From assembly GCA_964016885.1 (NCBI GenBank), contig CAXHJY010000492.1, positions 1 to 64,000 of the forward strand: a stretch of 64,000 nt of DNA. The letters run 5' to 3'. The DNA is from Eledone cirrhosa (lineage: Eukaryota). The stretch's first letter is position 1. Every line of letters begins with the position of its first letter. This document shows, piece after piece, positions 8,113-51,200 of the stretch. The notes beneath the pieces are model-generated. The model had not been told where the DNA came from. It did not search any database and was given only the letters and a program-made list of their open reading frames with translations. Position numbers and translations under genes: made by a program.

Positions 8113-8183
8113 TGTTTTATCTGATGAAAACACAAATATTATTGCATGATGATGTTTGTTTTTGAAATGCGCATAATAAAATA
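8113..8183 (+). ncRNA. Minimal type-I hammerhead ribozyme (PLE pLTR type)
   Basis: Stem I UGUUUUAU/AUAAAAUA; core CUGAUGA at 8121-8127; ~15-bp stem II with one mismatch; GAAA at 8164; palindromic stem III UGCGCA; AUA triplet, predicted cut after 8175. Confidence 0.75.
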
Positions 8184-8413: not shown

Positions 8414-8980
8414 CTAAGGCGGGTAAAATTCCCGAGATCCATGGACGAGTTCTCTCCAGCGGTCTCTGTCCCTCATTATCGCTGCCATGTTCTGCATCTC
8501 CAACAGACCAGTGTCTGTCCTTAGGGCATCAACATACGTTAACATTGGTCTTCCTCTTCTAGTGTGTCCATGTAGGGGCTCCCAAAGGAGTACTGAGTGC
8601 AATGTCAACTCTGGATGTCGGTGAGCATGTCCAGCTAACCTCAGTCTCCTCTGTGTCACTTTTGAGCTGAATTTTGGGATGCTCCCATACAGCTCTGAGT
8701 TCTTCATCCTCAGTGTATACTGATTAATGTTCAGAGCCATCCTCAGCATTCTCGTGTAGCACCCATCCACCATATGGGTGAGTTTCTTGGTCAGTGTCCA
8801 AGTGTCAGACCCATACAGCAGCACAGACTCCACTACAGCAATGAAGAGGCGGATTTTAAGGTCTCTACGAAGGTCCGACTTCCACACCGATCTCAAGCTG
8901 TGGCACGCCGCCCAGGCCTTGCTCTTCCTCTCAACCACATCATCCTCCGTATTCCCAATCTTCGCTCCCAAATACAAATA
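8414..8980 (-). mobile_element. 5'-truncated RTE-clade LINE fragment (RT C-terminus) inserted in (TA)n
   Basis: YLGAKI...VESVLLYGSDTWTL...RRLRLAGHAHR...RGRP...DRDRWR; (TAGA)n tail after the stop. Confidence 0.85.
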
Positions 8981-9059
8981 TATGTGTATATATATATATA
9001 TATATATAAGTGTATATTTATATATATATATATATATATACAAAAACTGATATATATAT

Positions 9060-9128
9060 TGTATTTTGTCTGATGAAGGCATACCATAATTTAACTTGGT
9101 ATCCTTGAAATATGTATAATGAAATATA
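9060..9128 (+). ncRNA. Minimal type-I hammerhead ribozyme
   Basis: Stem I UGUAUUUUGU/AUGAAAUAUA with GU pairs; CUGAUGA at 9070-9076; stem II AGGCAUACCA/UGGUAUCCUU; GAAA at 9107; U-AUGU-A then UA. Confidence 0.65.
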
Positions 9129-9181
9129 GTTTTATAAATATAGTTTCCATTTATTAATATCGTATATATATATATATATAT

Positions 9182-9935: not shown

Positions 9936-12472
9936 TGTAAGGAATGAAGAGAATAATAATAATAATATTAATAATAATAATGTCCGTTTACAATTGTTTC
10001 GCTACTCCATATAATATTTCTGGATCAAATGATTATAGATCATTATTGATCTGATTCAGTTGAAAATAATTAACATAGGTAAAAATAGACCAGCTCATCG
10101 GAACTTCAAAAGGAATATAAATTAAAATAAAGAAAGAATGTTACATGAATGTAATTTTCCATATATTGGTATTTCACTATGGTGTCCTGGGTATATCTAT
10201 TGTCTGCCATAGTCGAGCAGTATTCTTCTGTCGAGGCTGCATTGTGTGAGATCTGCCTATGGGTAACAAGATGGCCGCCAATGGACATATTTACCTTACT
10301 AATTAGAGGGTGGGTTCAGGGGAAGTAACTCCACGAGAGATTAGAAATTGTGGGTAGTTTATAGTTAAGAAGTGCTAATTTTTTAATTTTTTAATTGAGA
10401 GACAATGTAAGGGAGGTAACTTATAATTATCTAAGTTAGCTATAACTATTTAACTTATTAGCTACAAGTAAAAATGGGGCTAGATGACTATGTTGGGTCA
10501 AATATTCTGTTGGCGAAGGAATTAGCCCTTCGATGTTGACAGCTAATAGTTACCTCCGTTCTATCGTTAATCGGTAGAGGTCGTGATAAAGTTATGTAAT
10601 ATGCTTCGGTAAGACAGAGGTCACAAGAGTTTCTTCGTCCATTGTTGGGCCCTAGCCAAGATATCCCATGTTAGTGATTGTTCAATGTTGGTTAATTTAA
10701 GGTTTTTAATGAGCCTAGCCAGAGATGTCGAACATCTGTTGTTAAGGTCTCGGAAGGAAAAAGAGTGCGCGTTATAGCGTACCTTAAAAGGGTTAGAGGT
10801 AGAGCGAAGCAGTTTTAACCGTGTACCTATAAACTATATTGGGTGTCAGGCAATGTCCATTTAGTGGGCATGCATTAGGGTAACGGCAGTTGCAGTTACT
10901 TCTGCGGTTAGTGAGAGTAGGATTGTTTAATCTAAGCGGTTGGTCAGTGCTAGAAGGATTAGATGGAGGAGGTGTGCTACTGGAGTAAGTATTGGTGTAG
11001 TGGCGTGGTGTATTTGATGGGGTGGTGGTACCGCGGTGTGGGAGTTATACTGTCTTAGTTTATGATGGTTATTGAATTCGATGTGGCTAGCTAGGTTAGG
11101 TGTTGTGGAGAATGAGATTTTAATGTTATTTTTATTAAAGAGTTTGTAATATGTATGGTTGGGGGGGGGGATGTTTAGATAGGATAGAGAAGAAGCGTTT
11201 AGGGATATTAGTGGCTAGATTGGATGAGAATGGGGGGGTTAAGCCAGGTGATATTTCTAGGCCTATTCCTTCTATGGGTTCTAGTGGAGTTGGTAGGGGG
11301 CTTCAGAGGGTTATTATTACCTGGGCATTTGTTATTTGTCATCCTATTGCTCATTCCCATTCTAGGGTTGATTTTTAGTTTGCTACTTGGAGTGGGAAGC
11401 AGGCCACTGCTACCATTAAGGTTCCCTGTATAAGTGCTGTTACTGCTAAAATTCCGGCGTATCTGGCTATATGCTAAGGTATTTCTAGTTCTAATGTTAA
11501 GTTTATTATGGTTGTGGTGAAGTGCTGTGTTATGGCATTTAGGTATGTAGTAAATGGACTGTACATAACCAGATTCAGAAAGAGCCTTATTATAATATGC
11601 CGCATGGTTTATAAATATCTCCTCATTTGCTGATAGCATGGAGATCCTATACGAGATAGATTTGATTACTGCTCTGATGACTGCCGGTGGGTGGTTAGAG
11701 TGTGGCTAATATATGTAAGTATTTCACCTGGTTTATAATAAGGGTAATAGAGGTTATTGTTAATATCTAGGGTAACGTCTAGGAAGTTTACTATTTATGG
11801 TTCGGCTGGATGGTGATAGAGAGACCGTTATTTTTAAATAATCTATGTAACTGTTTTTTGAGCAAGTCAATGCCTCGATTAGTGAAATTGTGGAATGCAA
11901 ATAGGGCGTCGTCCCTATATATTCCGCCTTGCAAGGGTTAGATTTCAGCTCTGATGTTATGTAATAGGTAAATTCCAACTAAATCGGTGATTTGCGCAGA
12001 GTCACTTGAGCCCATCGTGATGTCAAAGTTGTCTGTTCTGTCTTTTCTAGTCCAGACTGCTCCGTTGAATTCAATGATGGTCTGCCTAGCCATAAGTATG
12101 ATGTCAATCTCATTATTGGTTATGTCAGAGTTGGTGCTGGCTAGGGTTAATGCTTTGTTGAGCAGTGTCGGGGTTATTGAAGCGTAATAGCTGTCAATGT
12201 CAAATTGGAGGAACCTCATAGATTCCTTGGACCTTAGATCTGAGAACCATCTAATGACTTGGCCGGTGTTGGACCACAGCTTGTAGGTCATATCATCTCG
12301 TAGCCCAGGGATGATCCTATCAAGGATGTTCTTACTGATACGACCCAAGTCGGGTGTGGTTGGGCTTATAAGTCTAATAGATGGGTTCTCTATAAAGTTT
12401 GGCTTGTGATCCTTGAGAGAAAACCTTGGGGTTGTAGGTACATAAGGGTGGGTAAATCTATCCAGATGCAAG
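9936..12472 (-). mobile_element. Decayed, 5'-truncated Penelope-like retroelement (RT + GIY-YIG remnants + 3' pLTR)
   Basis: LKDHKPNF..IRLISP, FDIDSYYASI, MGSSDSAQITDLVG; YRDD at ~11906-11917; linker CNCRYPNACPLNGHCLTPNIVY at ~10830-10900; FKVRYNAHSFSFR; CDLCLTEAYYI. Frameshifts and stops are present. Confidence 0.9.
9986..10104 (-). ncRNA. HHR-like motif in the PLE 3' pLTR, U4C core variant (CCGAUGA)
   Basis: Minus strand: GUU-CCGAUGA-GCU...(long stem II)...AGC-GAAA-CAAUUG-UA-AAC. Confidence 0.6.
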
Positions 12473-12612
12473 TCAAACTAAAATATGTTGACAATCTTTT
12501 AATAATGTCTTCCTTGTAAAATTTGTGGTCTTGTTTTTCTTAACTAATGAATATATATATATATATAGAATGGAAAACGAAAAATCAGTGATGCATCGGA
12601 ACTCAATTTATT

Positions 12613-12700
12613 GTGTTACAATTGTTTCCCCGGCGAACAGCTCGAGGTGCGATCTGTGTGTGGATCGACCTGACTCTGTATTCGCAGGTTCCTCAGACGC
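12613..12700 (-). ncRNA. Type-I HHR (core CUGAGGA) in left arm of inverted repeat
   Basis: GCGU-CUGAGGA-ACCUGCGAAUA...UGUUCGCCGGG-GAAA-CAAUUG-UA-ACAC; one mismatch in stem I. Confidence 0.6.
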
Positions 12701-12737
12701 GTCTATAGATTTCGTAGCATATCCTCTTTCAATAGAC

Positions 12738-12825
12738 GTGTCTGCGGAACCTGCGAATCCAGAGTCAGGTCGATCGACACAAAGATCGCACCTCGAGCTG
12801 TTCGCCGGGGAAACAATTGTAACAC
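12738..12825 (+). ncRNA. Type-I HHR (A6C core, CUGCGGA) in right arm of inverted repeat
   Basis: GUGU-CUGCGGA-stem II-GAAA-CAAUUG-UA-ACAC. Confidence 0.55.
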
Positions 12826-12947
12826 ACAATAAATTGAGTTCCGATGCATCACTGATTTTTCGTTTTCCATTCTATCATACTCTGCTCCGTAGGAGCATAG
12901 AGTGCTCAACCGGCATACCGCCTATGGAAGCATCTTAGATGCCATTA

Positions 12948-33211: not shown

Positions 33212-36200
33212 ATGGATGTGTTAAGAGTAGGATGTTTGAATGCACGTGGCCTGGGCTCAACTTGGAAGCAAGCAAAGCTTCTAAATGACCTCAGGTCATG
33301 TAGTATAAATGTAATGGTTATCTGTGAGACTCGAATCAGCGTCGTGCGGCAGCTGGCCCCCACCTTCGATGACTTTGAGGTGCATGCATCTCTCTGTCAA
33401 CCTGGAGGTGGGGGTGGGGTTGTCGTACTGCTGCAAAAACACCTGGGTCTTGCCGTACAGGTTGTGCACTCGGACCCGGAGGGTCGTTTGTTGGTGCTAG
33501 ACGTTGGCAGTAGTGAAAGTGCGGCCTTGAGACTGGTCGCCGTCTACTCCCCTTTCGGAGCTGAACGGCCCGACTTCTTCCAGCGTTTGGAGACTTTTCT
33601 GGGAACGTCGCGTTCCCTGCTTCTAGCGGGGGATTGGAATGACATCCTGGATGCACGTTGGGACTATGCAGGAGCATGTCCTAATAGAGGAGGGTGTAAC
33701 AGCCTCAAGGGGTTACTCGACCGTTTTAACTTGGTCGATAGATATCGACTAGATTTTCCAACTGTGCCTACCTGGACTTGGAGAAACCACAGTGGTCAAT
33801 CTAGATCGTACTTAGATAGATTCTTAGTTAGAAGTAAGGATAGGGACATATTAAGCTGTTCAGAAATGCGCACGGTTGGCTACACGGATCACAAATTAGT
33901 GACCTGCGTTGTCAATCTCGAGAAAACACATAGACAGGGTCCCGGTTACTGGAAACTTAATTTGTCTTTACCGGCAAAAGAGACTTACAGAAACCGGATT
34001 AGCAGATTAGTTAAGGAGAGGTTGACGGGTGCAATCGTCAACAACCGATGGTGGGCATCTCTCAAAAGAGAGATTAGAACAGAATCAATAAGTTATAGCA
34101 AGATGTTAGCTGCCGATAGGAATAGAAACGAGAAAGAATTAACAGGTAAATTAGAAGAGGCAATCAAGAGCGAAGATGTGGCCAGAGTGCTGGCATCGAG
34201 GACGGCCTTGAACCAGTTTTTCGATGCAAAGCACGAAGGCTGCGTCATTCGAAGTAAAATACGTGCTCTAGGTAATGAGGGGGCCAAAGCCGTTGGATGG
34301 GCCCGCGTGACAGAAGCTAAGAGTGGAAATCGATCCACCATCCGGTCGTTGCAAGACGAAGATGGACGGGTGATCCGGGAGCCTAAGCAGATGTGCGAGG
34401 CCTTTCAAAGGCACTTTGCCCGATTGTTCGGGGGAGGCGAGGGTCCAGGCGGGGGCGTGGATTTCGGTCCATACCTCGACGGCCTGCCGCGTCTCTCGAA
34501 CGAAGAGGCAGAGTCCTGCGAGGGACCAATCTCGGCTGATGAGATCGGAGATGCGCTGAGCCAATGCAGCAGACGCAAATCTCCAGGTCTCGATGGTATA
34601 CCTTACGAACTTTATTTAGCAATGCCGGTCTTCTTCTCCGAACTCCTCGAAGCGGTCTACTGCAATTGGCAGCAGAACGGGAGAATTCCTTGTTCTGTAG
34701 CCAAGGGCGTAGTCACGCTGGTGAGGAAGGACGAGAACAAGGGGGATAATATAAATAATTTTCGGCCCATAACCCTGCTAAACACAGAGTTAAAGATTTT
34801 GGCCAAGGTGTTAGCAAAGAGGTTGGCGCTTGTCGTGGGAGGCCTGGTGGGAGATGCGCAGACATGTGCTATCCCATCCAGGTCCATTCACGATAACCTC
34901 CACCTCATGCGATACATCATAGAGAGGGTTGGCAACAAACCCGGCTTCGGTGGGGCCCTGATCAACTTAGATCAGTCTAAGGCCTTCGATAGGGTCGACC
35001 ATGGTTACCTGGATTCGGTGCTAGCGGCGGCTGGGTTCGGTCCTGTTTTCAGAGGCTGGATCACTGCCTTACATAGCAACCACATCTGTTCTAGGATCAA
35101 GGTGAACGGCTACCTTTCGAAGCCGTTCGAAATCACACGATCCATTCGACAGGGGTTCCCTCTCTCCTCCCTTCTGTACGTATTGACTCTCGAGCCTTTA
35201 CTGAGGAAGTTGGAGTTGTTGCAGGGTATCCCCCTGTAACCAGGATTGAGCAAAGCGGTGTCGGCCTACGCCGATGACGTAACAGTAATGGTATCGACCG
35301 ACTCGGAGATCGAGGCGATCGGTACCTTACTGGAGGAGTACGAAAAGTTGTCAGGAGCGAAACTGAACCGGGAAAAATCCATCGGGCTGCAACTCGGAAC
35401 GTGGAGAGGCAGACCGATGCCTCCTGACGGTGTCGTCGGACACTGGACGGAGGGCCCGGTAAAGTTGCTTGGGGTCTGGTTTGGACCGGACCTCCAGGTG
35501 GAAAAGAACTGGAACGAGGTTACGAACAAGGTGTTTGCACTAACCCAGAAATGGGCCAAGTGTAAGCTGTCCCTAAAAGGCCGGGCGGAGGTGGCGAACA
35601 TTTACATAGCGTCTGTCACTTACTACCGCCTGACTGTCGTGCCTTGCCCTAAGGAAACACTCACCACCATGGAACGCATGCTCTTCCAATTTCTTTGGAA
35701 GAAGCGTCCTCCTATGGTGAGAAGATCCATCTGCTGCCAACAACCTTCGAAAGGAGGGCTGGGGATGCCGTGGTTGATGATGCGTAGGCACGCATTAAGG
35801 CTACGGCACCTACAGGTATTCCTCACTGGTCAACCGGTGTGGGCTCCGTTCGTGAAACGAGCCTTTCCGAGACTCGTCTCGCTCACCGAGCTACAGTCCT
35901 GGGTCAAGCAAAGATCCGGAAAACTGGGAGACTGGCACACTGAGTGTGCTCAGGCGCTCAGAGCTCTCTGGCAAGCGGGCCAGGCCATCGGTGGAGAATC
36001 CACCTCAGCATTCTATAGAGGGCTGGTGGCTAGCAGGGGCGATGACACCCTTGGAGAGTCGCTGGACATGGAAGAGGACGAACTGGCCAGCCTGTTCGGT
36101 AGGACTTTCGGCCCAGGACCAATGGACAACTTCCAGAAGTCACTGGCCTGGCAGTGCTACCGGGGGGCTCTACCCGTTCGAGAGAGGCTCTACAGACACG

Positions 36201-36649
36201 GGCGCCCGGGCAGGGATCCCTCAAAAAAGATTTGCCCTAGATGCGTGCGTCACGAAGAAACCGTTGCGCACGCATTGGTGCAATGTCCGGGCGTGGCTGA
36301 TCTGTGGGGCTACGCCGAACAACTGCTGTCGCGGGTGGCGCCGATTAAATTGACCGCCGAGTCCGTGATGACAATCAAACCGCCTCCCCTCTTCACAAAG
36401 GAAGCAAAGGCGGTTTTTCTGTGCGTAATAGCCATGTTGAAAGAGGTTGTTTGGTGGACACGATTGAAAGGTCTGAGGTCAGGCAACTTCCTCTCTGGCC
36501 ATAGTCTGGTCTACTTCTTCCGATATCACTTCGGAAGAAGGATAAGAATGGAGAGAGAGGTGCTTGGCCACAGGCAGTTTTATGAAAGGTGGGTGATAGT
36601 GGCGAGAATGGCTCGTGTAAATGGGCCTTCTCTGTATACCATCCTGTAG
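33212..36649 (+). pseudogene. Tx1 ORF2 (APE endonuclease + RT + C-terminal Cys/His motif) with one in-frame TAA at 35237-35239
   Basis: LNARGL, GDWN, SYLDRF, YTDHK, GPGYWKLN, KSPGLDG, FRPITLLN, DQSKAFDRV, YADD, CPRC..ETVAHALVQC. The two ORF-track pieces (33212 and 35246) are in the same frame. Confidence 0.9.
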
Positions 36650-36864
36650 GTAAAGAAGTAAAGGAGAGGGGAGCACCTTCTCCATGTGCTCCCCGGGCAA
36701 AGGATTGCACACTTTTTCGGGGGGGTGTGCAACCCCCATCACGTCCCCTCCCTTTTGAGGTTATTTTCGATTATTTTCATGTTACACCCTTTTTACTCGA
36801 TTATATGTAAACTCCCCCTTTGTATTTGTCCCTTCTTTTTATGCCTTTATGGTAAATAAAGAAA

Positions 36865-36914
<50 letters not shown>

Positions 36915-37045: not shown

Positions 37046-37076
<31 letters not shown>

Positions 37077-37210
37077 CGTCCTTGCCTCTATCTTTACTAC
37101 GGCCCTTGATAAACCTGTTCTACATCATCCACTCTCATCCCAGGAACAGTCTTTGATAGCGCTAGTTTGTGATTTAAATTCAGGAATTTTATATTCTTTG
37201 AGTGTAAAGA

Positions 37211-37294
37211 ACCTTCTGACGAGAATCTCTCTTTGCAACGAGGGCCGTATGGCCTACGTTTTATTTTTGGGATTCGAAACCGATCGGTAAAGGT
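37211..37294 (+). ncRNA. Type-I hammerhead ribozyme, copy 1
   Basis: ACCUU-CUGACGA-GAAUCUC...GGGAUUC-GAAA-CCGAUCGG-UA-AAGGU; canonical core; cut predicted after 37289. Confidence 0.85.
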
Positions 37295-37693
37295 AACTAT
37301 AGTAGGTAAAGTCAATTTTTTAAAATTTATTTTGAAACTTTTTCATTATTTACTAAACCTTGTTTATATTTGTTCTGGCTCGTTAATTTATTAACCCGCC
37401 ATTGAACCACACTGGCACTTGGTTGGACAATACATGCGTACCTTGGCGCCTTGTGCGTGAAAGGACGTATTTCATATTACTACTACCTCCACAAACGTTG
37501 AGAACAAACCGGGTCATTCCGACTGCTGCTGATAACAGCGGTGGCTAGTTTGACCTACCTCCTTTTGCCTCTATCTTTACTACGGCCCTTGATAAACCTG
37601 TTCTACATCATCCACTCTCATCCCAGGAACAGTCTTTGATAGCGCTAGTTTGTGATTTAAATTCAGGAATTTTATATTCTTTGAGTGTAAAGA

Positions 37694-37777
37694 ACCTTCT
37701 GACGAGAATCTCTCTTTGCAACGAGGGCCGTATGGCCTACGTTTTATTTTTGGGATTCGAAACCGATCGGTAAAGGT
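37694..37777 (+). ncRNA. Type-I hammerhead ribozyme, copy 2
   Basis: Same sequence as 37211-37294; cut predicted after 37772. Confidence 0.85.
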
Positions 37778-37873
37778 AACTATAGTAGGTAAAGTCAATT
37801 TTTTAAAATTTATTTTGAAACTTTTTCATTATTTACTAAACCTTGTTTATATATATATATATATATATATATA

Positions 37874-38603
37874 CAGGGTGTCCCAAAAGATGTGTACATA
37901 CTTTGATTACCTGTACAGGCAATATTTATTAGAATGCACAGCCATTCCCAAAAATAAAATTATCTACGAACATAATTCAATTGTATGTAAACACCCAAAA
38001 ATGTTTACATGATTTAAATAATTGTTTCTAGTTTTGGCACAAGGCCAGCAATACCCCCAGTGCATTACTGGTACTTTGTTTTATCGACCCCGTAAGAATG
38101 AAAGGCAAAGCTAACCCCGGCGGGATTTGAACTCAGGCCGTAAAGGGCCATAACTCTATGCTGCAAAGCATAGCATCCAACCCTCTACTGATACTGCCAA
38201 TCCACCGCCCTTAATTTAAATAATTGTTTCTACTTTTGGCACAAGGCCAGCAATTACCGAGTACATTACTGGTACTTTATTTTATCGACCCCGTAAGGAT
38301 GAAAGGCAGAGTCAACCTAGGTGGGATTTGAACTCAGATCGTAAAGGGACGTAACTACGCTGGAAAGCAATAATTGTTTCTACTATTGGCACAAGGCCAG
38401 AAATTACCCAGTACATTACTGGTACTTTATTTTATCGACCCCGTAAGGATGAAAGGCAAAGTTAACCTCGGCGGGATTTGAACTCAGAATGGCAAGGGCC
38501 GTAACTCTATGCGTCAAAGCATGGCGTCATGCATATAAAACAGAATCTATTTTAATGCATTTTTTTGCTGTTGAAGTGTGTATACATTTTTTGGGATACC
38601 CTG
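37874..38603. mobile_element. Tc1/mariner-type MITE with three nested SINE-A copies
   Basis: TA|CAGGGTGTCCCAAAAGATGTGTACATACTT ... AAGTGTGTATACATTTTTTGGGATACCCTG|TA terminal inverted repeats. Confidence 0.75.
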
Positions 38604-39034
38604 TATATATATTTGTTTGGTTACTTTTCTGTTGAACAATTGTTCACTATAGTTCCACATTACGGGGTCGATAAAATAAAGTACCAGTAATGCACTGGGT
38701 AATTGCTGGCCTTGTGCCAAAAGTAGAAACAATTATTATTACTACTTTGGAAAGCGGGGTGGACTGGAAGAATCGGTAGTGTCGGACAAAATGCTTTAAT
38801 GTTTTTAGTGACGATTTTCTACGTTCTGAGTTCAAATCCCACCGAGGTCAACTTTGCCTGCTATCCTTCAGAGATCGACAAAATAAAGTACCAGCTATGT
38901 ACTGGAGTCGATATTATCGAATTTCCTCCCAATTACTGGCCTTGTGCCTAAATTAAAAGCTATTATTGCTACTTTGGTTCTTTTAGTTTCACGGCCTCAG
39001 TGTGAGTGTGTCTGTGAAACATATACATATACAC

Positions 39035-39699: not shown

Positions 39700-41160
39700 A
39701 AATACGTCTGTGTGTGAGAGTATATGTGTGTGTATGTTTGACAGTGTGAAATACGTCTGTGTGTGAGAGTATATGTGTGTGTATGTTTGACAGTGTGAAA
39801 TACGTCTGTGTGTGTATGTTTGACAGTGTGAAATACGTCTGTGTGTGAGAGTATATGTGTGTGTATGTTTGACAGTGTGAAATACGTCTGTGTGTGTATG
39901 TTTGACAGTGTGAAATACGTCTGTGTGTGAGAGTATATGTGTGTGTATGTTTGACAGTGTGAAATACGTCTGTGTGTGTATGTTTGACAGTGTGAAATAC
40001 GTCTGTGTGTGAGAGTATATGTGTGTGTATGTTTGACAGTGTGAAATACGTCTGTGTGTGAGAGTATATGTGTGTGTATGTTTGACAGTGTGAAATACGT
40101 CTGTGTGTGAGAGTATATGTGTGTGTACGTTTGACAGTGTGAAATACGTCTGTGTGTGAGAGTATATGTGTGTGTATGTTTGACAGTGTGAAATACGTCT
40201 GTGTGTGAGAGTATATGTGTGTGTATGTTTGACAGTGTGAAATACGTCTGTGTGTGAGAGTATATGTGTGTGTATGTTTGACAGTGTGAAATACGTCTGT
40301 GTGTGTATGTTTGACAGTGTGAAATACGTCTGTGTGTGAGAGTATATGTGTGTGTATGTTTGACAGTGTGAAATACGTCTGTGTGTGTATGTTTGACAGT
40401 GTGAAATACGTCTGTGTGTGAGAGTATATGTGTGTGTATGTTTGACAGTGTGAAATACGTCTGTGTGTGTATGTTTGACAGTGTGAAATACGTCTGTGTG
40501 TGAGAGTATATGTGTGTGTATGTTTGACAGTGTGAAATACGTCTGTGTGTGTATGTTTGACAGTGTGAAATACGTCTGTGTGTGAGAGTATATGTGTGTG
40601 TATGTTTGACAGTGTGAAATACGTCTGTGTGTGAGAGTATATGTGTGTGTATGTTTGACAGTGTGAAATACGTCTGTGTGTGAGAGTATATGTGTGTGTA
40701 TGTTTGACAGTGTGAAATACGTCTGTGTGTGAGAGTATATGTGTGTGTATGTTTGACAGTGTGAAATACGTCTGTGTGTGAGAGTATATGTGTGTGTATG
40801 TTTGACAGTGTGAAATACGTCTGTGTGTGAGAGTATATGTGTGTGTATGTTTGACAGTGTGAAATACGTCTGTGTGTGAGAGTATATGTGTGTGTATGTT
40901 TGACAGTGTGAAATACGTCTGTGTGTGAGAGTATATGTGTGTGTGTTTGACAGTGTGAAATACGTCTGTGTGTGAGAGTATATGTGTGTGTATGTTTGAC
41001 AGTGTGAAATACGTCTGTGTGTGAGAGTATATGTGTGTGTATGTTTGACAGTGTGAAATACGTCTGTGTGTGAGAGTATATGTGTGTGTACGTTTGACAG
41101 TGTGAAATACGTCTGTGTGTGAGAGTATATGTGTGTGTATGTTTGACAGTGAGAAACGTC
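39700..41160. repeat. Minisatellite of 49-bp and 33-bp unit variants
   Basis: Unit AAATACGTCTGTGTGT(GAGAGTATATGTGTGT)GTATGTTTGACAGTGTG, about 32 units. Confidence 0.97.
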
Positions 41161-44453: not shown

Positions 44454-45003
44454 AACCAATCTTAGAATGAATATCTATCAAAATAATTCACTAAATAAAA
44501 AATAAAATGGTAAATTCTTTTATCATTCATCGTTTTTTTATGCTTTTCTGTGGTTGTTTGGGTTAGATGAGTTCACTCCAATAGAGCTTCTGTCCATTTT
44601 TCCATATCCTGTGTCATCTCCTTTCTGAGTTTTAGCATCCTGGTTGGCTTTCATTTCTGCCCTTGTCTTCCTTTGTCTTTCTCATCAGCAGCTGCCTTCC
44701 ACTTGAAACATCTGGAACTTCTTCACTCAATGATCATCATCCATATGCAAAATATATCCATACCAGTGCAGCCTTCTCTTCTACACACATCTCATTCCTC
44801 ATATACCCAGTTTTTCTTTCAGTTCATCCATGCTTCATCATTAATGCACACTGACATTACACATACAAAAGAACATGCTTCGTTTGTTTTTCTTCATATC
44901 ATTCACAATTTTGAAGTACCATTTTTGTATTTTAAGGAGAATCATCATTTCAAAAATAAGATATTTAACTAAAGAAAGCTTCTTTTGCAAATACTTTATT
45001 CGA

Positions 45004-48239: not shown

Positions 48240-51200
48240 CACATTCTACGAGACACTGATGCTCGCTACCTCCCAAATAACCGACAGTGACTATATAGTT
48301 ATTGCAGGCGACCTAAATGGTCACGTTGGACAACATTGTGACGGCTATGACGGAATCCATGGAGGCTATGGGTTCGGTACTAGAAATGAGGAAGGCTCCA
48401 GAATCCTGCGACGCAAATAACTTAACTATCTGTAACACTAACTTCAAAAAACGAGACAATCACTTGATCACCTATAGATCGGGGGAACACACAAGCCAGG
48501 TAGATTATATCCTTATCAGAAGACGTGACAGAGTGTCTGTTGTTAACACTAAATCCCTCCCCCATGAAGAATTCACCTCCCAACATAGACTGATAATTAG
48601 CGACCTCATAGTCAGGACGAGACGTACTAGACAGCGGAAGAGGACTATCCTCAGGAGAAAAATATGGAAGCTAAAGGACCCCATAGCCAGAAATAAATTT
48701 CAAAGCATATTACTTGACGCTTTCGACAGTAAGGAAAAGCAACTAGAGTCGTATAATATAGAGGAACAGTGGGAATTCCTGAGAGCAAACCTGCTGACGG
48801 CGGCAGACGAAGTCTGTGGCTGGAGCAGGCCTGTAGGTAGGAGGAAAGTAACATGGTGGTGGAACAGTAAGGTGGAGGAGTCAATTAAGGCCAAAAAGCA
48901 GGCTTGGAAAGCATGGCGGGATGGGGGAAGTAGAGAAGACTATCAAGTGGCCAGGAGGGAAGCTAGGAGACAAGTGTACTTCGCAAGAAGAGAAGCAGAG
49001 GAAAGAAAGTTCAAGCATGTTCTACAACGTGAGGACCAAAAACGTGAGGTGTTCAGGATTGCCAGGCAATGTGTCAAGGAAAACCGTGATATTGTCGGGG
49101 AGAAGTGTGTACTTAACGATGATGGCATACTTGCCATCACCGACGCTGATAAGAAGGTAGCTTGGAAGTGTCACTACGAAAGGCTTCTAAATGAGGAGAA
49201 CAAATGGGAGAAAGACAGTCTCCCCCACATCGACCCAATAGAGGGACCAGCAGTGTTAGTCCAGGGTAGTACAATAAGCAAGGCAATCAAAGATATGAAG
49301 ACGGGTAAGGCGGCTGGTCCTTCGGAAATAGTTGCTGAGATGCTGAAGGCATCTGGTTCGGTGGGACACACCATGGTCACCCGGATAGTTAACCAAGTCG
49401 TACAGAATGGGGTTGTTCTGAAGGACTGGCGTAGCAGCATCATCGTTAACTGCTATAAGGGAAAAGGAGATGCCCTAGATAGGAGTAACTATAGAGGCAT
49501 TAAATTAATCGACCAGGTCATGAAGGTCACGGAAAAAGTAATAGCGCAACTAATCAGAGAGAGAATTGATCTAGATGAAATGCAGTTCGGGTTTGTGTCA
49601 GGCAAAAGTACCACAGACGCTCTTTTCATTGTACGACAACTACAGGAGAAGTACCTAGCTAAAAGTAAACCCCTATACTTAGCTTTCGTCGACTTGGAGA
49701 AAGCCTTCGACAGAGTCCCCCGTTCCATTATCTGGTGGTCTCTTAGAAAACTAGGTGTTGACGAATGGCTTGTGAGAGCTATACAAGCCATGTATAAAGA
49801 AACAGTCAGTAAGGTTAGAATTAACAACGAATATAGTGAAGAGTTTAGCGTAAAAGTTGGTGTCCATCAGGGCTCTGTTCTTAGCCCCCTACTATTTATT
49901 ATTGCCCTTCAGGCTATAACAGAGGAGTTCAAGACCAGCTGCCCATGGGAACTCCTATACGCAGATGATCTAACGCTCATAGCTGAATCAATGACCGAAC
50001 TAGAGAAGAAATTCCAAACATGGAAGCACGGCCTAGAATCAAAAGGCCTTAAAATTAACCTGGCTAAGACTAAAGTTCTAGTTTGTAGGAAAGAAAATAA
50101 GGCGGCAGTCCCATCTGGGAAATGGCCATGCTCAGTGTGTAGGAAAGGCGTAGGTAGAAACTCCATTTTATGTCCCAAATGCAAAGTATGGGTGCATAAA
50201 AGATGTAGTGGGATCACAGGTAAGCTAACTAAGAACATAGATTTTACATGTGGCCGGTGCTCTGGTGCAATAAGTAGCAGCAAGTGCCCACAAAATACTA
50301 GCTCCTTCAACTGCGCAGAGGGTTCTATAGAAATAGTGGACAGCTTCCGTTACCTGGGTGACAAAATCAGCAGTGGGGGAGGGTGCTCTGAAAGTACAGT
50401 AGCTAGAGTCAGAACTGGATGGAAAAAGTTCAGAGAGCTTATACCACTATTAGCCGCTAGAGGGTTCTCCCTAAAAATGAAAGGCAGGTTATACGATGCC
50501 TGCATACGAACAGCAATGCTGCATGGCAGTGAGACCTGGGCATTGTGTGCAGAGGATATACGCAGACTAGAGAGGAACGAAGCTTGCATACTCCGCTGGA
50601 TGTGCAATAGTAATATACGTGAACGGCAAAGCATAAACGAACTAAGGAAAAAATTAGAAATAAGAGGGATCAGATGTTGTTTACTCGAGAGAAGGCTACG
50701 TTGGTACGGTCACGTGATGCGCATGAAAGACAACAGCTGTATAACAAAGTGCAGGGCAATAAAGATAGACGGTAGCCACGGAGTAGGCAGACCCAGAAAA
50801 ACATGGGACGAGCTGATAAATTCCGACCTCACACGCTTACACCTCTCCAAGACAATGTCACTGGACCGAGACCTTTGGCGGTACTCAGTAATAGAGAAGA
50901 CCCGCCTTACCTAAATACAAAGTAAAAACCTACTACAGTCAGTAGGCATCTCTATCAAAACACCCCCCGTCCCACCAACTCCACCCCATCCACACCGCCC
51001 CTTTCAATGTAAAGTTATGTTGGTCCCACAACATCCAGGCCGAAACAAATGAGATCGTGTAGGTGTCACGACAAAAAAACACACAGTCCACGCTGTAAAT
51101 GTGGCCGTGTAGGCAACACGGTAAAAACCTCCCAGCCCCACACTGTAAATGTGGTTGGTGTTAGGAAGGGCATCCAGCTGTAGAAAACCCGCCAGACAGT

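What the first reader, a model, noticed from the sequence alone, without database searches (positions are those of the whole stretch)
37067..37852. Two identical canonical hammerheads 483 nt apart in a young non-coding tandem element
Seen: two apparently identical 288-bp direct repeats each contain a canonical HHR (ACCUU/AAGGU stem I, CUGACGA...GAAA, palindromic CCGAUCGG stem III, GUA site). A 17-bp inverted copy of internal sequence caps the 5' end, and both flanks are (TA)n. No RT or endonuclease sequence is recognisable. Established: PLEs carry minimal HHRs in tandem pLTRs that cleave via dimeric stem III, and their insertions often have 5' inversions. Inference: read-through transcription would release a 483-nt unit (37290-37772) that could circularise, making this a recent retrozyme-like or non-autonomous PLE insertion.
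Basis: partly seen in the sequence, partly recalled or inferred. Interest (0 to 1): 0.8.

Follow-up and report, generated by a model that had tools for sequence, protein, structure and literature searches.

The report
Octopod hammerhead retrozyme, Penelope-type insertion
A 483-base non-coding repeat carrying a hammerhead (self-cutting RNA) motif sits here as 1.6 head-to-tail copies inside a TA microsatellite and belongs to a many-copy family, so it is likely a new member of a known kind of RNA-circle parasite (a retrozyme) of Penelope-like jumping genes, not a new kind of system.

Summary
There are two identical 288-nt repeats 483 nt apart, each with a complete type I hammerhead core, a 17-nt inverted cap and (TA)n on both sides. 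No such ribozyme match arose in 100 shuffles.

Public reads show a large, heterogeneous family: 810 contigs and 2,091 reads in one species label, fewer in two others. The 483-nt head-to-tail joint is real DNA in three of four runs laid, including a 513-nt (483+30) cyclic contig. Relatives also end in TA runs.

The anatomy is that of Penelope-like (PLE) insertion: partial tandem, 5' inversion, TA microhomology at both ends. The ribozyme is PLE/Hydra-type (7-bp helix II, 39-nt insert, weak palindromic helix III), not the canonical retrozyme fold. A decayed Hydra-clade PLE lies in the window, but no sequence link was found.

The cDNA crosses the cut site twice, so the template was likely a circle, or else an uncut multimer. 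Cleavage, expression and circles are untested, and folding models disfavour the ribozyme in the full unit.

Verdict: a new member of a known kind (non-LTR retrozyme / non-autonomous PLE), and a clean test case.

The parts
37046..37070 (.). left (TA)n run, likely half of the target microsatellite
37067..37083 (-). 17-nt inverted cap, reverse complement of 37461-37477; overlaps the TA run by 4 nt and the repeat by 2 nt
   Evidence: chance test
37082..37369 (+). direct repeat 1 (5'-truncated unit, pseudo-LTR-like), 288 nt
37211..37294 (+). type I hammerhead 1: stem I 37211-15/37290-94, core 37216-22, stem II 37223-29/37269-75 with a 39-nt insert, GAAA 37276-79, stem III with palindromic GAUC loop; predicted cut after 37289
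37290..37772 (+). predicted 483-nt monomer between the two cut sites (untested)
   Evidence: 483-nt period seen in reads
37300..37355 (+). predicted hairpin just after the cut site and just before the commonest family 3' end
   Evidence: loose ends
37370..37564 (+). 195-nt spacer, the rest of the unit; non-coding; holds the source of the cap (37461-37477)
37565..37852 (+). direct repeat 2; its last 5 nt (TATAT) overlap the right TA run
37694..37777 (+). type I hammerhead 2, identical to 1; predicted cut after 37772
37848..37873 (.). right (TA)n run

Best explanation
This is one insertion of a multi-copy, non-coding 483-nt hammerhead repeat family, likely a non-LTR retrozyme copied into a (TA)n tract by a Penelope-like reverse transcriptase from a circular RNA monomer. 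Steps: (1) A tandem source copy would be transcribed through two ribozymes (inferred). (2) The ribozymes would cut, probably helped by pairing of the two palindromic helices III, and a host ligase would close the 483-nt monomer (inferred from other retrozymes). (3) A TA-targeting PLE endonuclease, most likely Hydra-clade, would nick (TA)n, and the 3' end would prime at the unit's internal UAUAU, 80 nt past the cut site (5-nt overlap shown; priming inferred). (4) The RT would run 1.6 times round the circle, giving 483+288 nt with identical repeats (structure shown). (5) The other target strand would prime at an internal AUAU and copy 13 more bases, leaving the inverted cap, as in twin priming (overlaps shown; mechanism inferred).
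For: Family: 810 contigs in run X1 and 2,091 reads in X10 (organism A), 4 contigs in X4 (organism B) and 1 in X6 (organism C) lie on the unit. Tandem joint 37564->37082/3: 175 X10 reads (143 from 16 starts, 32 from 8), 2 X1 contigs, and one 513-nt X4 contig that covers the whole unit with a 30-nt overlap and 9 differences; so 3 of 4 runs. Relatives' loose ends run into TA repeats near 37357-37369 (X1, X4) and near 37443 (X1, X4), i.e. more than one internal priming point. Both repeats carry the same minority letters (37205: other letter in 647 of 662 X10 reads; 37242: in 395 of 418), as expected from one template. Partial tandem plus inverted 5' copy is the published PLE pattern, and Hydra PLEs target (TA)n and carry hammerheads (PMC8557442). 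Hydra-1_Obim is listed from Octopus bimaculoides with a (TA)n target. A Hydra-type remnant lies in this window. Several Hydra ribozymes have a 7-bp helix II and a helix III written like ours. Read variants in helix II and its inner hairpin keep pairing as G-U or A-U (37229, 37242, 37253). A helix III dimer is predicted at -18.6 kcal/mol against -0.9 for the monomer hairpin. Circle-templated, more-than-unit cDNA is the published model (PMC4209133; PMC7229834).
Against: Nothing here shows transcription, cleavage or a circle. The folding model gives the hammerhead helices probabilities of 0.00-0.02 in the circular unit and the whole element, 0.00-0.08 in 37071-37312, and about 0.5/0.5/0.05 in a 117-nt local piece. 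PLE-type ribozymes cut weakly even as dimers, and 1 of 9 Xenopus retrozyme dimers cleaved in vitro. An extra T in 124 of 575 X10 reads at 37283 breaks the helix III palindrome. No convincing DNA similarity to the window's PLE was found (best scores 35.5-39 against shuffle means 27-30, reached by 1-5 of 100 shuffles; AT-rich), nor to Hydra-1_Obim (exact short motifs and by eye only). No read covered the cap, so this locus and its copy number are not confirmed by reads. An uncut linear multimer explains the same DNA.
Confidence: 0.55

Rival explanations
1. Same family and same PLE machinery, but the template was an uncut linear read-through transcript of a tandem array; the ribozyme is slow, or only trims transcripts, and no circle is used.
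For: The ribozyme fold is predicted to be rare in the full unit. PLE ribozymes show low activity and 8 of 9 retrozyme dimers did not cleave. Naiad PLEs make the same partial tandems without canonical hammerheads. Tandem joints exist in DNA.
Against: The core and helices are intact, and variants in helix II keep pairing. Under classical twin-priming geometry a linear template would need about 875 nt with two uncut sites, longer than this 771-nt locus (inferred). Circles are shown for other animal retrozymes.
Confidence: 0.28
2. It is the non-coding end (3' UTR and pseudo-LTR) of a truncated autonomous PLE, not a self-standing non-autonomous unit.
For: Summed contig depth in X1 is about 50-fold higher over 37290-37410 than over 37492-37564, and some contigs and reads enter at 37276-37284 from other sequence, so related elements share only the part around and after the ribozyme. 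Hydra ribozymes lie about 50-100 nt from the 3' end.
Against: Upstream of 37082, reads continue into 37564, closing a 483-nt cycle with no ORF, in 3 of 4 runs. No coding remnant was found. Only 16 of 175 loose-end rows were shown, so a link to an ORF may be hidden.
Confidence: 0.1
3. A single unit was inserted, and the second repeat arose later by local duplication or gene conversion, or is an assembly error; the locus could also be a collapsed longer array.
For: Perfect identity fits these causes too. No read or contig laid covers the cap or the flanks (the flanks were not in the stretch laid).
Against: The same 483-nt joint is present in independent runs from two species labels. The cap has microhomology at both of its ends.
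Confidence: 0.07

Closest known systems
Animal non-LTR retrozymes (Cervera & de la Pena 2020, PMC7229834; Li, Clavereau & Pollet 2026, bioRxiv 10.64898/2026.07.22.740005)
   Same: Non-coding, low-GC, tandem unit with one type I hammerhead per unit; many copies; co-occurs with PLEs. It has two consecutive complete motifs, Li et al.'s criterion for 'active', and 483 nt lies within their 51-972 bp range.
   Different: Longer than the 170-400-nt circles that were validated. Helix II is long, with a 39-nt insert and no recognisable loop 1-loop 2 motif. It is a 1.6-mer with a 5' inversion in (TA)n. RNA is not shown.
Hydra-clade Penelope-like elements, e.g. Hydra-1_Obim (Craig et al. 2021, PMC8557442)
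   Same: (TA)n target; hammerhead near the 3' end; 7-bp helix II and similar helix III layout in several members; the PLE pattern of partial tandem with an inverted 5' piece; present in octopus.
   Different: No RT/GIY-YIG ORF. Ribozyme sequence differs from Hydra-1_Obim. Loop 2 is 39 nt against 3-10 nt in the Hydra rows seen. No sequence link shown.
PLE minimal hammerheads (Cervera & de la Pena 2014, PMC4209133)
   Same: Helix II 7-8 bp, helix I 4-5 bp, palindromic helix III region suited to dimer cleavage.
   Different: Helix III is present (2 bp plus GAUC loop), and the motifs flank a 483-nt non-coding unit instead of a 3-kb ORF.
MRC1 and other non-autonomous Chlamys PLEs (PMC8557442)
   Same: Non-autonomous PLE derivatives that form pseudo-LTRs and head-to-tail insertions.
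   Different: Algal; they generally share 3' sequence with an autonomous family, which was not found here; most Chlamys elements lack canonical hammerheads.

Membership tests
non-LTR retrozyme | type I hammerhead in each unit | tested here: met
non-LTR retrozyme | head-to-tail tandem units of a few hundred bp | tested here: met
   1.6 units here; 483-nt joint in 3 of 4 runs
non-LTR retrozyme | non-coding and multi-copy | tested here: met
   810 contigs and 2,091 reads
non-LTR retrozyme | canonical helix sizes with loop 1-loop 2 tertiary contact (typical, not universal: mussel motifs lack most of it) | tested here: not met
   5-bp helix I, 7-bp helix II with 39-nt insert; no Rfam hammerhead hit; mussel case
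non-LTR retrozyme | self-cleavage as monomer or dimer | not testable with these tools
   folding prediction only
non-LTR retrozyme | expressed as linear and circular monomer RNA | not testable with these tools
   only DNA or unlabelled runs could be laid
non-autonomous Penelope-like element | partial tandem (pseudo-LTR) with inverted 5' piece | tested here: met
   against PMC8557442 and PMC3846280
non-autonomous Penelope-like element | microsatellite target, (TA)n | tested here: met
   relatives' loose ends
non-autonomous Penelope-like element | 3'-end similarity to an autonomous PLE of the same genome | tested here: inconclusive
   no genome held; no convincing match to the window's remnant or to the held part of Craig et al.'s supplement
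autonomous PLE (Hydra clade) | ORF with RT and C-terminal GIY-YIG endonuclease | tested here: not met
   483-nt cycle closes without an ORF
plant-type LTR retrozyme | type III hammerhead, PBS, PPT, 4-bp TSD | tested here: not met
   the motif is type I, in an animal; ends merge into (TA)n; PBS and PPT were not searched for

The most novel reading that the evidence does not exclude
The first cephalopod retrozyme family, mobilised by Hydra-clade PLEs, whose insertions record rolling-circle reverse transcription directly. TA targets prime at several internal UA-rich points of a ribozyme-made circle, the RT passes the cut site twice, and twin priming closes the 5' end. The ribozyme, with its long structured helix II insert, is switched off in the circle and on in the nascent tandem transcript.
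Probability: 0.3. Interest if true: 0.62.

Novelty: new member of a known kind. Interest (0 to 1): 0.4.

Why it matters
How animal retrozymes and PLEs get their more-than-unit insertions is proposed but not shown; the papers read call for mechanistic work. This locus has sharp ends, identical repeats, visible priming overlaps and a sub-kilobase size. One PCR product would test monomer versus dimer cleavage, and one RNA experiment would test for the circle. It also points to Hydra-clade PLEs as a partner, which the vertebrate-focused preprint could not examine. It does not define a new kind of element.

Tried and rejected
No whole genome is held, so copy number, empty sites and the partner search could not be done genome-wide.

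Rfam: 0 hits at the gathering score in the window. At E<=10 around the locus, all 12 rows were TA-run artefacts.

Exact 24-nt ribozyme patterns gave 0 matches in viral, metagenome and prokaryote genome collections.

Sequencing-run search: no RNA holder listed. I laid 4 of the 12 listed runs.

Piles of read starts and ends in X10 at 37185, 37317-37324 and 37385-37388 lie at or next to AATT sites of the window. I read them as RAD-library cut sites, not RNA ends. Summed contig depth was not used as a copy number.

Intronic read-through from a host gene was rejected: the SLC6-like gene (+) ends near 25,700 and the MED20-like gene (-) ends near 45,000, so the element is intergenic.

No tRNA module was found. 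The sigma-70 scan is not meaningful for an animal.

Short open frames through the repeat had no Pfam hit (2 tested); a third, on the minus strand, was not scanned.

Naiad as the identity of the window's PLE remnant was dropped in favour of Hydra, because of its C-terminal endonuclease motifs.

Look-ups of earlier findings by sequence and by genome returned nothing.

The supplement of PMC7229834 could not be read. The preprint's supplements were not seen, and the PMC8557442 supplement is cut; any of these might list a cephalopod retrozyme.

Full report
OBSERVATION. Window 37082-37369 and 37565-37852 are identical over 288 nt, 483 nt apart, with no extension on either side. Each holds a type I hammerhead: stem I ACCUU/AAGGU, core CUGACGA (37216, 37699), a 7-bp stem II, GAAA, then CC-GAUC-GG and GUA. 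The predicted cuts follow 37289 and 37772. A descriptor of this stringency hit only these 2 sites in the window and 0 sites in 100 shuffles. The cap 37067-37083 is the exact reverse complement of 37461-37477 (0 of 2000 shuffles gave a 13-nt match). TA runs flank both ends. No RT or endonuclease is visible in six frames, and 0 of 2 short frames tested hit Pfam. Rfam gave no hammerhead match, probably because stem II encloses a 39-nt insert with its own hairpin.

HOST AND SETTING. The best named protein match to a host exon is an Octopus sinensis SLC6 transporter (87% identity over 93% of a 41-residue query), and exon matches to it are 52-87% identical. The host is therefore likely an octopod or other cephalopod, but not shown to be that species. 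The element is intergenic, between a SLC6-like gene ending near 25,700 (+) and a MED20-like gene ending near 45,000 (-) (the MED20 name is recalled). It lies about 200 nt after the TA run that ends a near-complete LINE on the same strand. That LINE could supply read-through transcription (inferred).

JUNCTIONS. At the 3' end the repeat's last five bases, TATAT, are also the start of the TA run; in the internal copy the same bases continue into the spacer. At the 5' end the cap's first four bases, ATAT, overlap the TA run, and its last bases overlap the repeat start by 2 nt (5 nt with a 2-base slip). Between the cap's source and the repeat start, 87 nt are missing. This is the inversion-with-deletion pattern that twin priming gives (mechanism recalled from LINE-1 work, from no call). 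PLE insertions are described as partial tandems with an adjacent inverted 5' piece and a microsatellite bias (PMC8557442, passages; PMC3846280, passages). The second paper prefers self-priming on an antisense template for head-to-head inversions with palindromic junctions; no such palindrome is evident here.

FAMILY. Twelve runs were listed, 7 holding the stretch or part of it, from 4 studies. I laid 4 of the 12 on 37067-37564 at 80% likeness. Run X1 (organism A contigs) gave 810 contigs: 133, 191, 238 and 248 in the bands 99+, 95-99, 90-95 and under 90%. X10 (organism A, RAD reads) gave 2,091 reads, X4 (organism B) 4 contigs, and X6 (organism C) one 241-nt contig with 9 differences and 1 gap. 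The joint from 37564 back to 37082/37083 was seen in 175 X10 reads (143 from 16 starts, 32 from 8), in 2 X1 contigs, and in one X4 contig of 513 nt that covers the whole unit with a 30-nt overlap and 9 differences. It was not seen in X6. The 483-nt period is thus real DNA in the family; contigs cannot tell a tandem from a circle. Loose ends run into TA repeats near 37357-37369 and near 37443 in both X1 and X4 (16 of 175 loose-end rows were shown). No run covered the cap: first-bin depth is no more than two covered bases of 17 would give. That proves nothing, because the tool filters some records and RAD samples only part of a genome. The window copy carries minority letters in both repeats (37205, other letter in 647 of 662 reads; 37242, in 395 of 418), as one template or a homogenised source would give. 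None of the 40 variant rows shown (of 104) falls in the catalytic core, and those in helix II and its inner hairpin (37229, 37242, 37253) keep pairing. An extra T at 37283 in 124 of 575 reads breaks the helix III palindrome.

RIBOZYME TYPE. Metazoan canonical motifs have a 6-bp helix I and 4-bp helix II with loop contacts; PLE motifs have a 7-8-bp helix II and 4-5-bp helix I, and cut weakly even as dimers (PMC4209133, parts 1-2 of 4 read). Ours is of the second build, and its helix III is laid out like several Hydra-clade rows of File S2 of PMC8557442. The folding model gives the three helices probabilities of 0.00-0.02 in the circular unit and whole element, and about 0.5, 0.5 and 0.05 in a 117-nt piece. 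A helix III dimer is predicted at -18.6 kcal/mol against -0.9 for the monomer hairpin. The unit folds somewhat better than shuffles (z -2.5, 2 of 100; circular -114.9 against -98.5 +/- 5.4 in 40 shuffles). Efficient monomer cleavage is therefore doubtful, and dimer or co-transcriptional cleavage is open.

PARTNER. A decayed PLE lies at about 10,500-12,480 (-), with RT, a CxCX5C linker and CxxC..E..N..CxH endonuclease motifs. These are the Hydra-clade marks; that clade targets (TA)n and carries hammerheads (section 11 read). Its RT piece resembles Hydra-1_Obim by eye; Pfam did not recognise it. Hydra-1_Obim is listed from O. bimaculoides, 2,507 bp, (TA)n target, with its ribozyme about 50 nt from the 3' end. 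Octopus Naiads also target (TA)n, so they remain possible partners. Local alignment of our unit to the window remnant gave only weak AT-rich matches (1-5 of 100 shuffles reached them), and three ribozyme motifs had 0 hits in the held part of that supplement. The partner is inferred, not shown.

MECHANISM. The insertion starts 80 nt past a cut site and crosses the cut site twice, so a cleaved linear monomer cannot have been its only template. A circle (best, 0.55) or an uncut multimer (0.28) could. Circles from tandem hammerheads are shown for coral, mussel and axolotl retrozymes, with PLEs proposed as helpers (PMC7229834: outline, results parts 1-2 of 3 and discussion read). A 2026 preprint links vertebrate retrozymes to PLE pseudo-LTRs, gives unit lengths of 51-972 bp, and found cleavage in 1 of 9 dimers (parts 1-3 of 5 read). 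PMC7761336 was seen as passages.

NOVELTY. Searches for octopus or cephalopod with hammerhead, retrozyme, Penelope or circular RNA listed no paper describing a cephalopod retrozyme; 'retrozyme' with 'twin priming' gave 0 papers. These are listings of an open-access library only, and unseen supplements may hold one. Earlier unchecked scan notes describe similar tandem non-coding units with PLE-type ends in other genomes, so the pattern is recurrent.

VERDICT. A real, recent-looking insertion of a new octopod-type family of a known kind; interest 0.4.

Noticed in passing
window ~10,500-12,480 (-): Decayed, frameshifted Hydra-clade PLE (RT, CxCX5C linker, C-terminal GIY-YIG motifs); no CUGANGA core on its strand.
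   Followed up: partly
window 8113-8183 and 9058-9130 (+): Two more hammerhead-like motifs (CUGAUGA cores at 8121 and 9070, long helix II, near-palindromic helix III) in islands between TA arrays; likely ends of other TA-targeting PLE families; no similarity to the 483-nt unit.
   Followed up: partly
window 4488 and 6545 (+): The same ~20-nt fragment beginning with a CUGAUGA core is embedded twice in the 7.5-kb (TA)n array; possibly truncated PLE ends.
   Followed up: no
window 31,226-36,865 (+): Near-complete LINE (zinc-knuckle ORF1; endonuclease-RT ORF2 with one in-frame stop at 35,239) ending at a (TA)n run about 200 nt upstream of the element; Tx1-like (recalled); a possible source of read-through RNA.
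   Followed up: partly
window 37,865-38,612: MITE-like element with ~39-nt inverted ends between TA bases, directly right of the insertion, holding three ~150-nt SINE-like copies at 38,018-38,506 (octopus SINE, recalled).
   Followed up: no
window 12,570-12,870: Long inverted repeat (arms of about 100 nt) next to a TA run at the 5' side of the PLE remnant; seen by eye.
   Followed up: no
loose ends at 37,238 and 37,284: A sister subfamily in organisms A and B has a different helix II insert but the same core and downstream part (75 and 97 X10 reads; 1 X4 contig).
   Followed up: no
window 8,414-8,960 (-) and 48,317-50,914 (+): RTE-type LINE pieces (recalled from their translations), one with an 865-codon open frame.
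   Followed up: no
window 39,700-41,156: Compound 33/49/82-nt minisatellite, partly 98% homogeneous.
   Followed up: no
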